Shown here piece after piece: positions 23,901-62,900 of a DNA stretch of 64,000 nucleotides; position 1 is the first letter of the stretch, and each line of letters opens with the position of its first letter. Origin of the DNA: Ruditapes philippinarum (taxonomy: Eukaryota); contig NW_026854834.1 in assembly GCF_026571515.1 (NCBI RefSeq), positions 1 through 64,000 on the forward strand. The letters are read 5' to 3'. A program made the position numbers.

Positions 23901-26900
23901 TCAAAATGACGTCAGTTACGACGTAACTATCGATGAAAGCCAAATGAGATTTTTCTTATTTACGTCTCTGGTGTTTTTGCCTATCACTCAATTTATAGGC
24001 AACCGTCATTTTTTGTTAGTTAGCTACTCAAAGGATTTCAATATATTCTCGCATTATGAGTCATGACGTCATCCTATCTTATGTATAACAAATACATGCG
24101 TCAGATGTGATAAAATTTACATCTCTTTTCATTTTTTGAGTTTACACCATATTTTTTCTCCAAGCTTGCATACCTGTGAAAAGAGTAAGAAAAGATATAC
24201 GGCAAGATTTAAGCACATTTTAAAAGCACGCAACATAAAACTAATATCATGTTCTTCCAAAGGGAGTAAATACTTCGTTAAGTTAATATATCAATGCATT
24301 TTTAACATCATTTATAACACATAAAATTCAAAATAAACGAAACAAAGTATCACATACAACGTTTTGAATAAAAGGAGTAATGTATTTAATCATACATAAT
24401 ACAAACTTATTTTATTTCAGTTTAAGTTTTTTTTTCACTGAAATATTTCGCGAAAAAATACTACATGTACTTGTTTTCAAATATCATTTTCAAGGCTTGT
24501 TAAAGGAGCGCCACTGAGGTCATAAAAGCCTAAAAATATTAAGTTTGAGAATCTTGCATAGATCAAGTGATACAATTAAAATGGAAATTCCTGCAAATGA
24601 TAATAAAGAAATATACTCAGAGTTAAAATAGAAATTGATTTTTGCACGATTTTTAGCCTTTTGAAAAGCGTTGCAATTCTTTTAAGATTTTTGGGTCATT
24701 TTTGCACAATAAAAAAATACTTATTCTGGGAAAATAGAGTGAGGGAATGAAATGAATTTTTTTCACACAAGTTATTAGTCCGGACATACATCAAATGGTA
24801 CGCAAGACTCCAAAAATATATCAAGTCCGTTAAAGTTAAAAAACTCCAGTGGATTCTCTTTAAAATTATAAAGTCCATATATTTACGTATAGGGTTTGGC
24901 GGTGGTCTCCTTGGATTTACTGAAATGAAAATTATCTTTTTCTGTCAATACAAGTTTGAAAAGGCAAGTCGCGAAATATTAATATTATAATCCTTAAAAT
25001 AATTCAAAAGCAAACGTTTTTGTCTTATTTAGCACATTAATTAAAGCGGTCTTCAGCTTTTTTAAGGTATAATAATATGTTATTTTAAGACAAATCGTTT
25101 CATGTAATTTTCAAATCAAAAGAATTAATGAAAAGAATGGAAACATTTAGGTAATAATTATCAACTTCACAAAGTTTAACCGCCAACGTTTCGAGATGAT
25201 AAACCCCTTTTTATCAAGGAGTTTCTGTGTATTTTATGAATCACATTTTTATCTTCTTGTCTTAACACTATGTTTTTGCAGTATGAAAGAAATTAATTTG
25301 AAAAAGTAATTGTTTTACTAACAAGCAGTGTCTATTCTAGGATTTGAAAAACAGGGGGGATTTTATAAAAAAGTGAGAATTTATTACATTTGTTTACTTT
25401 TTTCCTTCTTTTTCTATGTAAAATTTCCCCCCTGCCTCTGAAAAAATAGGGGGGAATTCTCAAAAATAGGGGTGAATACCCCCCCCCCTCCTAGAATAGA
25501 CACTGAACAAAAAAGAGCTGAAAACCGCTTTAAAGTAAATTCACGTACATTTGACGACATTCTGGAATGAAGATCCCAAGAGAGCTATGTAAGTGAACAT
25601 TGCTGTAAGTTCATGAGAGCCAATGCTGTACAGAAAGTTTTTTTTTTTTTCAAAACATCTCTCACGACCCCTTAGCACAGACTGAAGCATTAACACATGT
25701 CTTGCTTTCATTTTTAATAGCAGTCTTTTTCTTATTGGAAAAATAAAAAATTGCATTCAGCATTTTACAAAAATGTATTTCCTGCGTCCACTTACTTTCA
25801 AGTCGGCCCCTTTTGTTCCAAGAAGAGCCCTCTGCGATAGAATCCAATGAATACTTCCTTCTTTTATGGCCAAAACTTTTATGCTTTCGTTTGCAACTAA
25901 AAAATACAAGCCAATAATTATGGTCACTAACATACATGATGAGATCATTCAATAATTGAAACAAAAAATTTAAAAAAGGTAAACATTAATGCCTCTTAAT
26001 TAGAGATAATGGACACGCGTTTAAACATCTCTGATGTCCCTAAATCTTACATAAGTAGTATTAAGTCTCAAAACTATAACCATATTATAACAATCAATTA
26101 TATTCAAGGACCAGAAAATAGGCAACCCAATCACAACAAAAATGAAATAATTTTGTCTTTTTCGTGTTTTTTTCTTCTTCTTATAAATGTATTACTTTTT
26201 TGCTTAATGCACTTTATTGGCATTTCTTTTGTTCTAGATTTGTATCCAAACAATTGTATCAACAAACACAGAACATCGGTATACATGCTTGATTTTGCAG
26301 GACTCAATTATTTAAGCTATTCTATATTACGAATGAAGAATATTGTATATATATAATTCTTAGACAAACTTTTCATTTGTTTTACCACAAGGATACAAAT
26401 GCACCTGGAAATTTCCAAGCTCACGTGATAATCCAAACGGACTACAAACATTAATTACAACGTCCTTGACCATTGAGCGAGTCCTTGGTGCTTGATTATA
26501 AATTATATTCCTGTTGAACTTAATAAATAAATAAATAAATAAATGAATAAATAAATAAAAAAACGATCTGAAAATATTTCAAATCTTGTTCAACAATGAA
26601 AGATTATATTAGTTGATATTTTAGCCAATGGAAGTTAACGTGGGCAAAATGCCATTAAATACTTACAATGTTCTTTTAAATTGACCACACCCATTTTTTC
26701 CATGGCACGTGAAAATGACGTAAGCAAGAACGCCAATACAGACAAGTAGGGCAGCAATACATGCCGACAACCATGCGATATTCTTATTGTCTTCCAGGAA
26801 AGAACGATACCTATCCGTGGTGGTTGTCGTACTTGTGGTCGTAGTACCTGATGAATATAGTACATGGTTAGATAATAGCAAACTGCCTTATGGGATATTA

Positions 26901-59900: not shown

Positions 59901-62900
59901 CCTGGCGATGAATCACTGGTAATGATTTTGTCTATGAAAGCAGAAAGTTACATAATATTTAAAATCAAAATCTTTTTAAAAAACAGCTTGTTGAATTTCA
60001 AAGTATATAAAATACATTTGTAATTTTCATAATCTTCAGAAATCACATGTAACGACAAAAAACATAAGAAGTAAAGAATCAGAAAATAAAAAAATAATAA
60101 TTTACTATCAACAATTTGCCAATAAATTTTGCAATATAAGTTGTATTATCATTTTCTTTAAGATGCATACTATTTACAATAAGTCTTATTCTATTTTTGC
60201 AATAAGGTCAAAGCATTGATCAACCCTTAGCCTGCCGGAACCGGAACGGACTAGTCATTGCCGCCAGTATAGAGCCGAAATACCATACTTTCATCGGACT
60301 GTTAGCAGGACAGACTCAGCAAGTTCTGGGTAAATCAGTGATTAATAAGACAGTAACGATAACAGATATCATTGCATTAGAATGGTACCTTATGTTCTTT
60401 TCTTTCTAAGATGTCCTCGAATATATGTAATGAATCATTCATAATGTCATCGTCGGATACCCACGAGTAACATTTAATCAAATGCTAATGGTTCGGTCGT
60501 GGGTATTTGACGATGCATTCATATACTTAAAGTACCATTGTTTTCAGAACTTCTCAAGGGCTCTTAATCTAGTTATATATGGTTTAGATAATGATACATG
60601 TATTTACAGAAAGTATTTACAAAAAATAACTTTCGAATAATAAATACCCGTAAGTCCAATAGTAAACGGTGCTCCGGCAGGTGTTGTGCTTGCAATACTG
60701 CACGTGGTTGCGCTTCCCTCGGGATCGGTTACGCTCACTGTAAATAGAGACGTCGCGGTAGTTTCGTCCTCGCTTATAGAGTTCGAGTCTGGAAGGTTGG
60801 TTATAGTTGGGGGCTTGAATGAAAAATATGGTTTTAAGAAAAAATAGTGTACCCCTTTAAAGAATTAGAAATAAAAATTGCAGAATATAAATGAATCCTT
60901 AGACTTTATCCTGTACATTGCAATTAATGATGCAACAATGTATGTATGTATTCTAGGCTTAATAAGGGTTCATCAGCCCTTTCAGACACTAAAAGTACGG
61001 ACCCCAGACATGTCACAATTCATGTCCTAAATTATTATTATCAACCAAAAGGTGACATATAAATTTTGAATTCGGTAATTCAGTGAATGATCCTAAATAT
61101 GTATGCAAGTCGATGAGGACGTGAAATTTCATTCATGTATATCATTCTTCTTCTAAAGCAATTTCCAAACATCAAAGAATATGTTAAATATATACTGCCA
61201 ATGTTTACACGCATTATAAGTAATCAATAAAATCTATGTTGAAAAATTTGGGTTAGACTTTATCGAAAAAAAAGTTCTATTATCTCCCTTTATTTACATG
61301 AAATGTAAATTCGGTAATATGATAATATATTTCTGACTTAAAGCAGTTTAACACATTTACATGTAAGCTTTTGTATGTTGACTGAAGTTTAATGCTTAAA
61401 TTTATAGTTTAAAGATAAAAATATGAAGTTTAGACAAAACAATAATATGATATTTATATGAAGGTCTGGCTTTCATATAAGTATGCTACCAAGTAATCTG
61501 TTTACTGAGGGAAGTAAATTATTTTAAATACCTGGTTTGTAATTGAGACGGTAAGTGTAGCAGTTGCAGTATTTGAACACTGGTCAGTTACTTTAAATAC
61601 TAGCTTGTCCACAGTTGTAGTGGAAAACGTGGTAGCTGTAGATACTTCATCTTCAATGAAAAAGCATAACTTACTTAAGTGAGAAATAAGAGAGCAAAGT
61701 ATTGAAACATTTTGGTAATTATTGCTGCAGATAAGCAAATTAAAAGCATAAGGCAGTAAAAAATAGACTGGGGAAATATTGGTATAAGACATTTTTATAT
61801 TGAGATGACAAAGGGCAGTAAATTATTGACAAAGGAGAGCATAATACTTGGGGCAGCAAATGTTGGCACGAAGCAACAAATTTTGACACGGGGGACAAAA
61901 AAATATTGACAAGGGGCAGCAAAAAAATGACCTAATACTGACATAAAAAGGCAAAATATTGGTAAAGGAATAGAGAAAAGCAAAATATAGACTCAATGTA
62001 GCTTTTTCAAGTAGACTGATATAGGACAGCAAAATATTAACGAGTCAACAAAATATTGACAAACAGCAGCAAAATTTTGACAACACACATTATGATATTG
62101 CCGTAAGATGGCAAATTGTATTTGAGGGACAACAATATATTGACAAAATATCACAAGGACAACTAATTATTAACCTATGAAAGCAAAATATTTACGAAGT
62201 AGAGCAAAATCGAAATCATATAGGGCAGCACAATTTTGACATGGAGAGTAAAATATTGCAAGACGGCAAAACTAAACTGAAAAAATGAAAGAAATATTGC
62301 GCAAGACAGCAAAATATTGACATACACCGCCAAAAATTGACCCGAGGCATCAAAAAGCCATTTGACAATAAAATATTGACATTGATCAGCAGAAAATTGA
62401 TATTGATAAGCAGATAATTGACAAACAGAAGCAAAATATTAAAAAATCGCTGCAAAATATTGGCCTAAGACAAAAGAAAAAGTCATCAGACAATTGATTA
62501 TTGACATTTTGCTGCAGATAATTTACAAAAGGCAGGAAAACATTGACAAACGGTAACGAAATAAAGGCCTTAGACAAAAAATATCATAATGCCATTAGAC
62601 AGTTGGATATTAACATCGTTTAGCAGAGCATTGACAGAGAAAAACATGGATACAAGGTAATAGAATTTGGATGCTAAGCAAATTTAAGAAAAAAAGGAAC
62701 ATTTTGATGTAAGCTGCAAACAAATGACACATGGTGTGATCGTGTCAAGTCATGGGAAAGGCATCAAATATTTTCATAGGAAGTACTAAAATATTGACAT
62801 AGTGTACCATAATATTTATAAAGGATAGCAAATTGTTAAAGCAGGACAACAAAATATTGACATAGGGAAACAAAGTATTAAAAAGATAAATACATGTATT

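What the first reader, a model, noticed from the sequence alone, without database searches (positions are those of the whole stretch)
24142..61650. Tandem pair of non-classical 6-repeat cadherin-like receptors with identical exon architecture
Seen: two head-to-tail paralogs ~2.2 kb apart with matching exon sizes (166,159,129,123,177,188,244,321,181,33,32 nt), many synonymous substitutions and largely non-alignable introns. Known: classical cadherins carry catenin-binding tails, and vertebrate clustered protocadherins encode the ectodomain in one exon; neither applies here. Inference: this may be the edge of a lineage-specific tandem array of diversified adhesion/recognition receptors. It is the best candidate here for an undescribed system.
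Basis: partly seen in the sequence, partly recalled or inferred. Interest (0 to 1): 0.7.

Follow-up and report, generated by a model that had tools for sequence, protein, structure and literature searches.

The report
Tandem clam cadherin-like receptor genes
Two neighbouring copies of a clam-specific cell-surface gene that carries a previously unnamed "head" domain on a stalk of six cadherin repeats; a real but small gene family rather than a large new recognition system.

Summary
Two head-to-tail paralogs lie on the minus strand. The nine exon sizes from 166 to 181 nt, and the 33- and 32-nt tail exons, recur in both copies with splice sites at matching positions. Summed over nine exon pairs, dS is 0.32 and dN/dS 0.24, so they are diverged paralogs, not haplotypes.

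Corrections: the genes are 12.3 kb apart, not 2.2 kb.

The window is Manila clam (Ruditapes philippinarum). Gene 1 is the database protein "cadherin-23-like", 887 aa.

- Three upstream exons encode a conserved 140-aa N-terminal beta-sandwich domain with no Pfam or PDB sequence match.
- Gene 1's first cadherin repeat is broken by a 2-kb internal tandem duplication.
- Gene 2 runs off the window.

The family is small: 12 proteins carrying the N-domain were found, from four named clam species and two unnamed sources. There is no catenin-binding tail. Only the membrane-proximal repeats are canonical cadherin.

I read it as a lineage-restricted cadherin-stalk receptor with a distal ligand-binding head. 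No large tandem array is visible.

The parts
40299..40484 (-). Gene 1, N-domain exon 1 (186 nt). It starts in phase 1, so an upstream leader exon must exist, but none was found.
   Evidence: AG/GT bounds and translation. 100% tblastn match to P0006 aa 1-57. The leader profile search of 40.5-52.7 kb gave a best E of about 1.
39607..39682 (-). Gene 1, N-domain exon 2 (76 nt)
38604..38770 (-). Gene 1, N-domain exon 3 (167 nt)
37555..37725 (-). Gene 1, EC1 first-half exon, copy A (171 nt)
36379..36563 (-). Gene 1, EC1 second-half exon, copy A. Only 36563 to about 36494 is homologous to gene 2. Beyond the duplication junction the database model reads 37 codons of repeat-derived sequence, up to a GT at 36378 (185 nt, in frame).
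36494..38525 (.). Unit A of the internal tandem duplication in gene 1
   Evidence: 37193-38525 matches 35141-36492 at 95.8% over 1354 columns. 36494-36683 matches 34902-35082 at 87.9%.
34902..36492 (.). Unit B of the internal tandem duplication in gene 1
35523..35693 (-). Gene 1, duplicate EC1 first-half exon, copy B (171 nt, open frame, 2 aa different from copy A)
34859..34962 (-). Gene 1, EC1 second-half exon, copy B: 104 nt against 119 nt in gene 2. It has an in-frame TGA and has lost the conserved Cys.
34045..34210 (-). Gene 1, 166-nt exon (EC2 first half), with a GC donor
33064..33222 (-). Gene 1, 159-nt exon. The database model uses an acceptor 39 nt upstream (33261). In gene 2 the equivalent extension contains a stop.
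31442..31570 (-). Gene 1, 129-nt exon
30644..30766 (-). Gene 1, 123-nt exon
30126..30302 (-). Gene 1, 177-nt exon (EC4 first half)
29123..29310 (-). Gene 1, 188-nt exon
28588..28831 (-). Gene 1, 244-nt exon (most of EC5)
27512..27832 (-). Gene 1, 321-nt exon (whole EC6, with DANDNPPVF and DADTG)
   Evidence: PF00028 at 29.6 bits against a cut-off of 28.8. 100% match to P0006.
26667..26847 (-). Gene 1, 181-nt exon (Thr-rich stalk, DRY motif, transmembrane helix)
   Evidence: and reading of the translation
25796..25896 (-). Gene 1, 101-nt tail exon (FGHKRRKYSLDS).
24887..24919 (-). Gene 1, 33-nt tail exon (NPRRPPPNPI)
24142..24173 (-). Gene 1, last 32 coding nt (MQAWRKNMV, then stop). The conserved 3' UTR runs on to about 24074.
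61532..61650 (-). Gene 2, intact EC1 second-half exon (119 nt). It is the most 5' part of gene 2 seen in the window.
60648..60813 (-). Gene 2, 166-nt exon
59773..59931 (-). Gene 2, 159-nt exon
59174..59302 (-). Gene 2, 129-nt exon
58008..58130 (-). Gene 2, 123-nt exon
57122..57298 (-). Gene 2, 177-nt exon
56638..56825 (-). Gene 2, 188-nt exon
55686..55929 (-). Gene 2, 244-nt exon
   Evidence: A near-identical read-through ORF, P0129, exists in an unnamed source.
55151..55471 (-). Gene 2, 321-nt exon (EC6)
   Evidence: PF00028 at 29.7 bits
54004..54184 (-). Gene 2, 181-nt exon (stalk and transmembrane helix)
53509..53618 (-). Gene 2, 110-nt tail exon
53251..53283 (-). Gene 2, 33-nt tail exon
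52817..52848 (-). Gene 2, last 32 coding nt (MQAWRRDMV, then stop)
40485..52816 (.). Spacer between the genes (12,332 bp). It holds 33-bp satellite arrays at 44031-45158 and 46131-46921 and other repeat copies.

Best explanation
The region holds two head-to-tail paralogous genes of the Manila clam on the minus strand. They belong to a small cadherin-superfamily family found so far only in heterodont clams (Ruditapes, Mercenaria, Mactra, Mya) and two unnamed sources.

The full protein, as seen in relatives, has these parts in order: a signal peptide, a conserved 140-aa beta-sandwich N-domain, six cadherin-type repeats, a Thr-rich stalk ending in a conserved DRY-x-F-x-E-D-x-x-N-I-A-W motif, one transmembrane helix, and a short basic, proline-rich tail with no catenin-binding domain. 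Only the membrane-proximal repeats keep canonical calcium-binding motifs.

The two copies arose by tandem duplication after the split from the Mercenaria lineage, or were homogenised since. Over most of their history they evolved under purifying selection.

Gene 1 later suffered a 2-kb internal tandem duplication. One breakpoint lies inside the exon for the second half of EC1, so gene 1 has no intact version of that exon. Its predicted protein bridges the gap with repeat-derived sequence. Gene 2 is intact over everything visible but is cut off by the window.

Mechanism (inferred, not shown): a type I surface receptor in which the six-repeat stalk holds a distal ligand-binding head away from the membrane. 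The ligand may be a glycan. The short tail may dock adaptors through its R-x-P-P-P motif.

The confidence of 0.6 blends about 0.9 for identity and architecture with about 0.3 for this mechanism.
For: Identity:
- The 321-nt exon is 100% identical to P0006, 'cadherin-23-like [Ruditapes philippinarum]'.
- tblastn of P0006 places 16 exon-sized matches along gene 1 and 11 along gene 2.

Cadherin nature:
- PF00028 scores above its cut-off on the EC6 exon of both genes and on all 5 full-length relatives scanned.
- The family profile hits 163 solved cadherin sequences. The best is CELSR1 at E 2.4e-79.
- Six repeat units of 93-108 aa are marked by N-x-x-P-x-F-type starts.

N-domain:
- It is conserved in 12 proteins.
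- 0 of 11 N-domains match any Pfam family above cut-off, and there are 0 PDB sequence hits.
- The AlphaFold2 model has mean pLDDT 87.5 and is all-beta.
- BFVD gives 5 matches at E <= 1e-3, to phage tail or fibre proteins, with TM 0.55-0.70.
- The best PDB folds are mycobacteriophage tail-tip fibres and a carbohydrate-binding module, but none reaches E <= 1e-3.
- The Atlas leads are Lectin_like, DUF4082 and PHR, all below 0.9.

Selection and timing:
- Omega is 0.24 summed over nine exon pairs.
- Single-exon trees pair gene 1 with gene 2 (support 89/91 and 88/85) and pair the two Mercenaria proteins (83/81).

Damage in gene 1.
Against: - No expression data, ligand or localisation is available, so function is inferred from architecture alone.
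- The structural matches of the N-domain are weak: no PDB hit at E <= 1e-3, and the Atlas scores are at 'lead only' level. A glycan-binding role is therefore a guess.
- Tree support for species-specific duplication is moderate, with no branch reaching the tool's strong threshold. The trees rest on single exons of 81-106 aa.
- EC1-EC2 are not matched by any solved cadherin in the best stretches; these cover profile positions 354-798 only. Calling them cadherin repeats rests on periodicity, weak Pfam hits (Cadherin_4 at E 0.018) and the family alignment.
- The C-terminal residues differ (NMV, DMV, TVV) and are not conserved across the family, so a PDZ-ligand role is not supported.
- Gene 1 lacks a detectable leader exon and an intact EC1, so it may not make a working receptor.
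Confidence: 0.6

Rival explanations
1. Gene 1 is a decaying copy (a pseudogene in the making) and only gene 2 is a working gene. The 887-aa database protein would then be an artefact of a gene predictor bridging a broken exon.
For: - No intact EC1 second-half exon exists. Copy A is cut at the duplication junction, and copy B is 15 nt short with an in-frame TGA and no conserved Cys.
- P0006 carries 37 unrelated residues where all 7 other aligned relatives have the conserved D-Q-C-x-N-T...I-T-N segment.
- No leader exon was found upstream of an exon that starts mid-codon.
- The 166-nt exon has a GC donor.
- More amino-acid changes fall on the gene 1 lineage than on gene 2: 34 against 21 with Mercenaria as outgroup. 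Gene 1 also has the longer branch in both exon trees.
Against: - The rate excess is not significant (binomial p 0.10-0.35 with four outgroups).
- All 14 other exons of gene 1 are open, with splice sites.
- Overall omega is 0.24.
- The database model is in frame from end to end.
- The internal duplication is young: its long segment differs by 4.2%, against dS 0.32 between the genes. Decay would therefore not yet show in omega.
Confidence: 0.35
2. The pair is the visible edge of a large, diversifying tandem array of recognition receptors. This is the reader's idea, by analogy with the cephalopod protocadherin expansions.
For: - There are lineage-specific tandem duplicates in Ruditapes. Several family proteins share a contig in Mercenaria (2) and in Mya (2 on one contig, 3 on another).
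- A third Ruditapes paralog with a shorter ectodomain lies on another contig.
- Gene 2 runs off the window.
Against: - Only two copies are present in 64 kb, with none in the 24 kb downstream of gene 1.
- Only 12 family proteins were found among 5.8 billion clustered proteins. That search scored only the 8000 best candidates.
- Omega is 0.24, with no exon above 0.55. This is ordinary constraint, not diversifying selection.
Confidence: 0.08
3. The two genes, or the 2-kb internal duplication in gene 1, are assembly artefacts caused by haplotypes placed in tandem.
For: - Clam genomes are highly heterozygous (recalled, not tested).
- The two internal duplication units are 95.8% identical over 1.35 kb, a level that divergent haplotypes could reach.
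Against: - For the gene pair: dS is 0.32, all 11 intron lengths differ, there is a 9-nt length difference in a tail exon, and the intervening 12 kb has its own repeats.
- For the internal duplication: there are no Ns in the window (script), the segment next to the junction is only 87.9% identical and has indels, and the minisatellite lengths differ between the units.
Confidence: 0.07
4. The protein works as a homophilic cell-cell adhesion molecule through its distal cadherin repeats, as protocadherins do. The N-domain would then be only a cap or spacer.
For: It has six repeats like protocadherins. The best-matching solved structures include gamma-protocadherin ectodomains, at E 2.3e-39.
Against: - The most conserved distal element is the non-cadherin N-domain, with 12 invariant columns in 11 sequences.
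- EC1-EC2 are the least cadherin-like repeats, and their linkers lack acidic calcium-binding motifs.
- The short paralog P0272 keeps the N-domain but only three repeats.
Confidence: 0.2

Closest known systems
Non-clustered or delta-type protocadherins and cadherin-related (CDHR) proteins
   Same: Single-pass type I membrane proteins with six or so extracellular cadherin repeats and no catenin-binding tail. Repeats EC3-EC6 align to solved protocadherin, CELSR, PCDH15 and CDH23 ectodomains.
   Different: - There is an extra conserved 140-aa non-cadherin beta-sandwich ahead of EC1.
- Only one canonical DxNDNxPxF linker occurs per protein, in 7 of 9 proteins examined.
- The family was found only in heterodont clams and two unnamed sources.
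- No orthology to any named subfamily was shown.
CDHR5 (mucin-like protocadherin) and CDHR2 of the vertebrate brush border (properties recalled, not tested)
   Same: A short cadherin ectodomain followed by a Thr-rich, probably O-glycosylated stalk, one transmembrane helix and a short tail. One Mya family member is automatically named 'cadherin-related family member 2-like', and a Cdhr2 structure is among the PDB hits.
   Different: - The Thr run here is only about 10 residues.
- The N-domain is absent from CDHR2 and CDHR5 (recalled).
- The C-terminus is not conserved as a PDZ ligand.
Cadherin-23, the name given by the database
   Same: It shares cadherin repeats. CDH23 fragments are among the PDB profile hits, at E 1e-19 to 1e-28.
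   Different: Cadherin-23 has 27 repeats and over 3,000 residues (recalled). These proteins have six repeats and 801-969 residues. The name is a best-hit label, not orthology.
Vertebrate clustered protocadherins and the cephalopod protocadherin expansion (abstract of PMC6339937 seen in a search listing; the rest recalled)
   Same: Cadherin-superfamily genes in head-to-tail tandem arrangement, six repeats, lineage-specific duplication in a mollusc.
   Different: - The ectodomain here is split over at least 11 exons, and each gene has its own tail exons.
- Only two copies are visible, not tens.
- Selection is purifying.

Membership tests
Cadherin superfamily | At least one extracellular cadherin repeat recognised by the curated model PF00028 above its cut-off | tested here: met
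   - EC6 exon of gene 1: 29.6 bits. EC6 exon of gene 2: 29.7 bits. The cut-off is 28.8.
- 5 of 5 full-length relatives score 66-91 bits.
Cadherin superfamily | Tandem repeats of about 110 aa forming the ectodomain | tested here: met
   - Six units of 93-108 aa lie between the N-domain and the stalk in P0033.
- The family profile hits 163 solved cadherin sequences.
- Those matches cover EC3-EC6 only. EC1-EC2 rest on weak hits (Cadherin_4 at E 0.018; Big_9 and Cadherin_4 in P0033).
Cadherin superfamily | Calcium-binding linker motifs (DxNDNxPxF, DxD) between successive repeats (motifs recalled) | tested here: inconclusive
   - One canonical DxNDNxPxF, at the EC5-EC6 linker, occurs in 7 of 9 family proteins. 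It is also present in both window genes.
- EC3-EC4 has DINDP and EC4-EC5 has NENE-x-P-S-F.
- The EC1-EC2 and EC2-EC3 linkers have no acidic motif.
Classical (type I/II) cadherins | Cytoplasmic catenin-binding domain (Pfam Cadherin_C) | tested here: not met
   No such family was reported at E <= 0.1 in 5 full-length relatives, including P0006. The tail is about 65 residues, basic and proline-rich.
Clustered protocadherins | Whole ectodomain, transmembrane helix and proximal tail in one large variable exon, spliced to shared constant exons | tested here: not met
   The ectodomain is split into at least 11 exons, and each gene has its own three tail exons and stop codon.
Cadherin-23 orthogroup | 27 cadherin repeats in a protein of over 3,000 aa (recalled) | tested here: not met
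   Six repeats. Family proteins are 801-969 aa.
CELSR/Flamingo, Fat, Dachsous | Seven-pass membrane region (CELSR), EGF and laminin-G modules (Fat), or 27 or more repeats (features recalled) | tested here: not met
   Pfam finds only cadherin-type and Ig-like families in the 5 relatives scanned. The alignment shows a single hydrophobic segment.
Large lineage-specific tandem arrays (cephalopod protocadherin type) | Tens of head-to-tail copies at one locus | not testable with these tools
   Two copies are present in this 64-kb window. No eukaryotic genome collection was available for scanning the rest of the scaffold or chromosome.
Carbohydrate-binding module or lectin-like domain (for the N-domain) | Significant sequence or structure match to a known CBM or lectin family, and sugar-binding residues | tested here: inconclusive
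   - No Pfam match in 0 of 11 N-domains, and no PDB sequence hit.
- Foldseek against PDB gives 0 hits at E <= 1e-3. The best include the CBM of FjoAcXE, at E 0.038 and TM about 0.5.
- The Atlas gives Lectin_like at 0.87, which is lead level only.
- Binding residues were not assessed.

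The most novel reading that the evidence does not exclude
Heterodont clams have evolved a private class of surface receptors. A beta-sandwich 'knob' is displayed on a six-cadherin stalk. The nearest structural look-alikes of this knob are the distal domains of phage tail fibres and carbohydrate-binding modules. The family repeatedly duplicates in tandem and reshuffles, producing a short three-repeat paralog and an internal exon duplication. It could serve non-self, microbe or particle recognition (for example glycan sensing on gill, mantle or haemocyte surfaces) rather than cell-cell adhesion. 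If so, the N-domain would be a new metazoan ligand-binding module.
Probability: 0.15. Interest if true: 0.6.

Novelty: new variant of a known kind. Interest (0 to 1): 0.33.

Why it matters
If the architecture is real and expressed, it adds a lineage-restricted branch to the cadherin superfamily. In this branch the adhesive tip is replaced or capped by an unnamed, conserved beta-sandwich domain. That gives a concrete, testable candidate for a bivalve surface recognition receptor.

It also shows that automatic names such as 'cadherin-23-like' mislead for this family.

Finally, the only annotated copy at this locus carries a broken first repeat, which matters to anyone using that protein model. 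Beyond that the finding is ordinary: a two-gene tandem duplicate under purifying selection.

Tried and rejected
- **Leader exon of gene 1, and N-terminal exons of gene 2.** I tried a regular-expression search and a profile of eight relatives' leaders against 308 minus-strand ORFs in 40.5-52.7 kb and 61.8-64 kb. The best E was about 1, so nothing was found.
- **First N-domain model.** Built from 6 sequences, it had pLDDT 57.5. Its fold search gave no hit at E <= 1e-3 and I discarded it. The 11-sequence model replaced it.
- **Word-index search with the Mercenaria N-domain alone.** It found only the two Mercenaria proteins. The profile search was needed to find the rest.
- **Exhaustive search with the 244-nt exon peptide.** It gave 344 hits, mostly long multi-repeat proteins without names. 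This did not help to delimit the family.
- **The repeat at the duplication junction.** Rfam (0 matches) and ARAGORN (0 genes) did not support calling it a tRNA-derived element, so I leave that as an impression only.
- **PDZ-ligand reading of the C-terminus.** Rejected, because the last residues are not conserved.
- **Haplotype explanation of the gene pair.** Rejected on dS 0.32 and the structural differences.
- **Literature.** Four searches found no paper on this family. I saw only listings and abstract starts, and read no paper text or supplement.

Full report
**Source and scope**

The window is AT-rich (28-42% GC) and has no Ns (script). The 321-nt exon translates to a peptide 100% identical over its full length to P0006, named by its sources 'cadherin-23-like [Ruditapes philippinarum]'. 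P0006 is 887 aa and sits on a 77,631-bp contig. The window is therefore Manila clam, not human.

I never joined the window's exons into one sequence for any search, fold or tree. Where a full-length protein was needed I used database proteins returned by the search tools (P0006 and its relatives).

**Checking the observation**

A blastn comparison of 22-42 kb against 50-64 kb gives 12 collinear blocks of 73-90% identity. All the coding sequence lies on the minus strand.

Both genes have one at the homologous position, and the phases chain correctly from exon to exon. The only irregular site is a GC donor after gene 1's 166-nt exon.

The tail has three exons, not two:
- A 33-nt exon encodes NPRRPPPNPI.
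- A final 32 coding nt end in MQAWRKNMV-stop at 24142 (gene 1) and MQAWRRDMV-stop at 52817 (gene 2).

Summed over the nine equal-length exon pairs, dS is 0.32, dN is 0.076 and omega is 0.24. Single exons range from 0.16 to 0.55. All 11 intron pairs differ in length.

The 'about 2.2 kb apart' statement is wrong. Gene 2's stop lies 12,332 bp from gene 1's first recognisable exon. The spacer carries two 33-bp satellite arrays.

tblastn with P0006 and with the Mercenaria relative P0033 shows that gene 1 continues upstream.
- Three exons (40484-40299, 39682-39607, 38770-38604) encode a 140-aa N-terminal domain.
- Two further exons encode the two halves of a first cadherin-type repeat, EC1.
- The first of the three N-domain exons begins mid-codon behind a good acceptor, so a leader exon must lie further upstream. 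A pattern search and a profile built from eight relatives' leaders found none in 40.5-52.7 kb, with a best E of about 1. P0006 accordingly starts at an internal Met and has no signal peptide, whereas relatives have hydrophobic N-termini.
- For gene 2, the most 5' part present is the intact EC1 second-half exon (61650-61532, 119 nt). Nothing further 5' was found up to base 64000, so gene 2 is cut off by the window.

A self-comparison shows a tandem duplication. Unit B is 34902-36492 and unit A is 36494-38525. The two units are 95.8% identical over 1,354 columns, and 87.9% identical over the 190 columns next to the junction.

On the minus strand the order of features is:
1. N-domain exon 3
2. 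unit A
3. unit B
4. the rest of the gene

One breakpoint lies in the intron after N-domain exon 3. The other lies inside the EC1 second-half exon.

The consequences for gene 1 are as follows:
- Copy A of the EC1 second-half exon keeps only its first ~70 nt, then runs into repeat sequence.
- The database model reads on through 37 unrelated codons to a chance GT at 36378 and stays in frame.
- Copy B, which is contiguous with the old 3' part of the exon, is 104 nt instead of 119. It has an in-frame TGA and has lost the Cys conserved in the other seven aligned relatives.
- The EC1 first-half exon is present twice (37725-37555 and 35693-35523).

Gene 1 therefore has no intact EC1.

A relative-rate count by exon, with four outgroups, puts more changes on gene 1 than on gene 2: 34 against 21, 34 against 22, 28 against 20 and 24 against 17. 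None of these is significant (p 0.10-0.35).

**What the family is**

Pfam finds the cadherin domain above its cut-off on the EC6 exon of both genes and in all five full-length relatives scanned. It finds no catenin-binding family.

A profile of eight full-length family proteins matches 163 solved cadherin sequences. The best are CELSR1 at 2.4e-79 and protocadherin gamma-B4 at 2.3e-39. The best stretches cover profile positions 354-798 only, which is roughly EC3 to EC6.

Six repeat units of 93-108 aa can be counted from the N-x-x-P-x-F-type starts. Exactly one canonical DxNDNxPxF linker, between EC5 and EC6, is present in 7 of 9 family proteins and in both window genes. The EC3-EC4 and EC4-EC5 linkers are half-canonical. 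The two distal linkers have no acidic motif. The motif definitions are recalled from the cadherin literature.

After EC6 comes a run of Thr, then a conserved D-R-Y-x-x-F-x-E-D-x-x-N-I-A-W motif, a hydrophobic helix, and a basic tail with a conserved R-x-P-P-P element. The very C-terminus is not conserved.

**The N-domain**

A profile search for longer proteins carrying the N-domain found 12:
- 2 from Mercenaria, on one contig
- 1 from Mactra
- 5 from Mya
- 2 from Ruditapes: P0006, and a 529-aa paralog on another contig that has the N-domain, three repeats and a membrane helix
- 2 from unnamed sources

That search scored only the 8000 candidates sharing the most words.

Other results on the N-domain:
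- None of the 11 N-domains scanned matches a Pfam family above cut-off.
- The profile has no PDB sequence hit at E <= 1.
- With 11 sequences, AlphaFold2 gives an all-beta model with mean pLDDT 87.5 and pTM 0.84.
- Against PDB, no match reaches E <= 1e-3. The top rows are mycobacteriophage tail-tip or central-fibre proteins (E 0.012-0.015, TM 0.52-0.63) and a carbohydrate-binding module (E 0.038, TM about 0.5).
- Against predicted viral structures, 5 matches reach E <= 1e-3. These and the following rows are largely phage minor tail, fibre and collagen-repeat proteins, with TM 0.55-0.70.
- The ESM Atlas finds structurally close unnamed clusters from sponges and actinomycetes (TM 0.77-0.84). Among named clusters it finds only lead-level similarity to Lectin_like, DUF4082 and PHR.

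I read this as a distinct beta-sandwich of the kind often used as a distal binding knob. That is an analogy, not a demonstrated function.

**History of the duplication**

Single-exon trees pair gene 1 with gene 2 (support 89/91 on the 321-nt exon and 88/85 on the 244-nt exon). They also pair the two Mercenaria proteins (83/81). No branch reaches the tool's strong-support threshold.

So the duplication is either younger than the Ruditapes-Mercenaria split or has been homogenised since. A 92-aa read-through ORF from an unnamed source (P0129) is nearly identical to gene 2's 244-nt exon and groups with it. A gene-2-type copy therefore exists in another dataset.

**Mechanism**

Shown: the gene structure, the paralogy, the purifying selection, cadherin membership of the proximal repeats, the conserved N-domain, the absence of a catenin-binding tail, and the damage to gene 1.

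Inferred: type I topology (from relatives' leaders and the basic residues after the helix); a rigid calcium-bound base with more flexible distal repeats; ligand binding by the N-domain; and adaptor docking at the proline-rich element.

I put about 0.9 on the identity and architecture, and about 0.3 on the ligand-binding-head mechanism.

**Novelty and literature**

Four literature searches found no paper on this family. I saw only listings and abstract starts. Supplements are closed, and expression tables of clam transcriptome papers could mention these genes.

The proteins exist in databases under inconsistent automatic names. I rate the finding as a new variant of a known kind: a cadherin-superfamily receptor with an unnamed N-terminal module.

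**What stayed unchecked**
- The copy number along the scaffold and genome, because no eukaryotic genome collection was available.
- Expression.
- Read depth.

Noticed in passing
window 44031-45158 and 46131-46921: Two arrays of a 33-bp satellite (about 12-34 and 20 copies, 83-94% matches) flank a GC-richer block at about 45.2-46.1 kb. That block reaches 42% GC against roughly 32% elsewhere. All of this lies in the spacer between the two genes.
   Followed up: partly
window 34982-35119, 36571-36818, 42294-42542: A repeat that matches its own reverse complement at 78-88% (a palindromic, MITE-like element). In gene 1 it lies directly upstream of the acceptor of both copies of the EC1 second-half exon. 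It is absent from that position in gene 2.
   Followed up: partly
window 36314-36492 and 38347-38525; weaker copy at 10792-10912: A short interspersed repeat forms the junction of the internal duplication. Part of it is read as coding sequence in the database protein P0006. Its head looked tRNA-like to me, but ARAGORN and Rfam report nothing there.
   Followed up: partly
window 36892-37261 and 35187-35473; similar low-complexity ORFs at 61.8-62.6 kb: A minisatellite (21- and 62-bp periods in unit A, a 126-bp period in unit B) lies in the intron between the two EC1 exons. It differs in length between the duplication units. Gene 2 appears to carry a related array just upstream of its EC1 second-half exon; I judged that from ORF patterns only.
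   Followed up: no
window 8103-8576, minus strand: An open frame with an EF-hand pair (EF-hand_8 at 28.9 bits against a cut-off of 28, E 9.6e-07). It is probably an exon of a separate calcium-binding protein gene downstream of gene 1.
   Followed up: no
window 1186-2102, plus strand: Three adjoining open frames of 93-95 aa have no Pfam match. They may be a mobile-element remnant.
   Followed up: no
window 12570-13656, plus strand: Strong AT skew (-0.29) and long low-complexity Leu/Phe-rich open frames, indicating another simple or tandem repeat block.
   Followed up: no
protein P0272 (another Ruditapes contig of 48,586 bp): A third Ruditapes family member of 529 aa. It has the N-domain, only three repeats, a Thr run and a membrane helix, making it a short-stalk version of the same receptor.
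   Followed up: partly
window 33261-33223, minus strand: The database model of gene 1 uses an acceptor 39 nt upstream of the conserved one, adding 13 residues to EC2. The equivalent extension in gene 2 contains a stop, so the 159-nt form is the conserved exon.
   Followed up: yes
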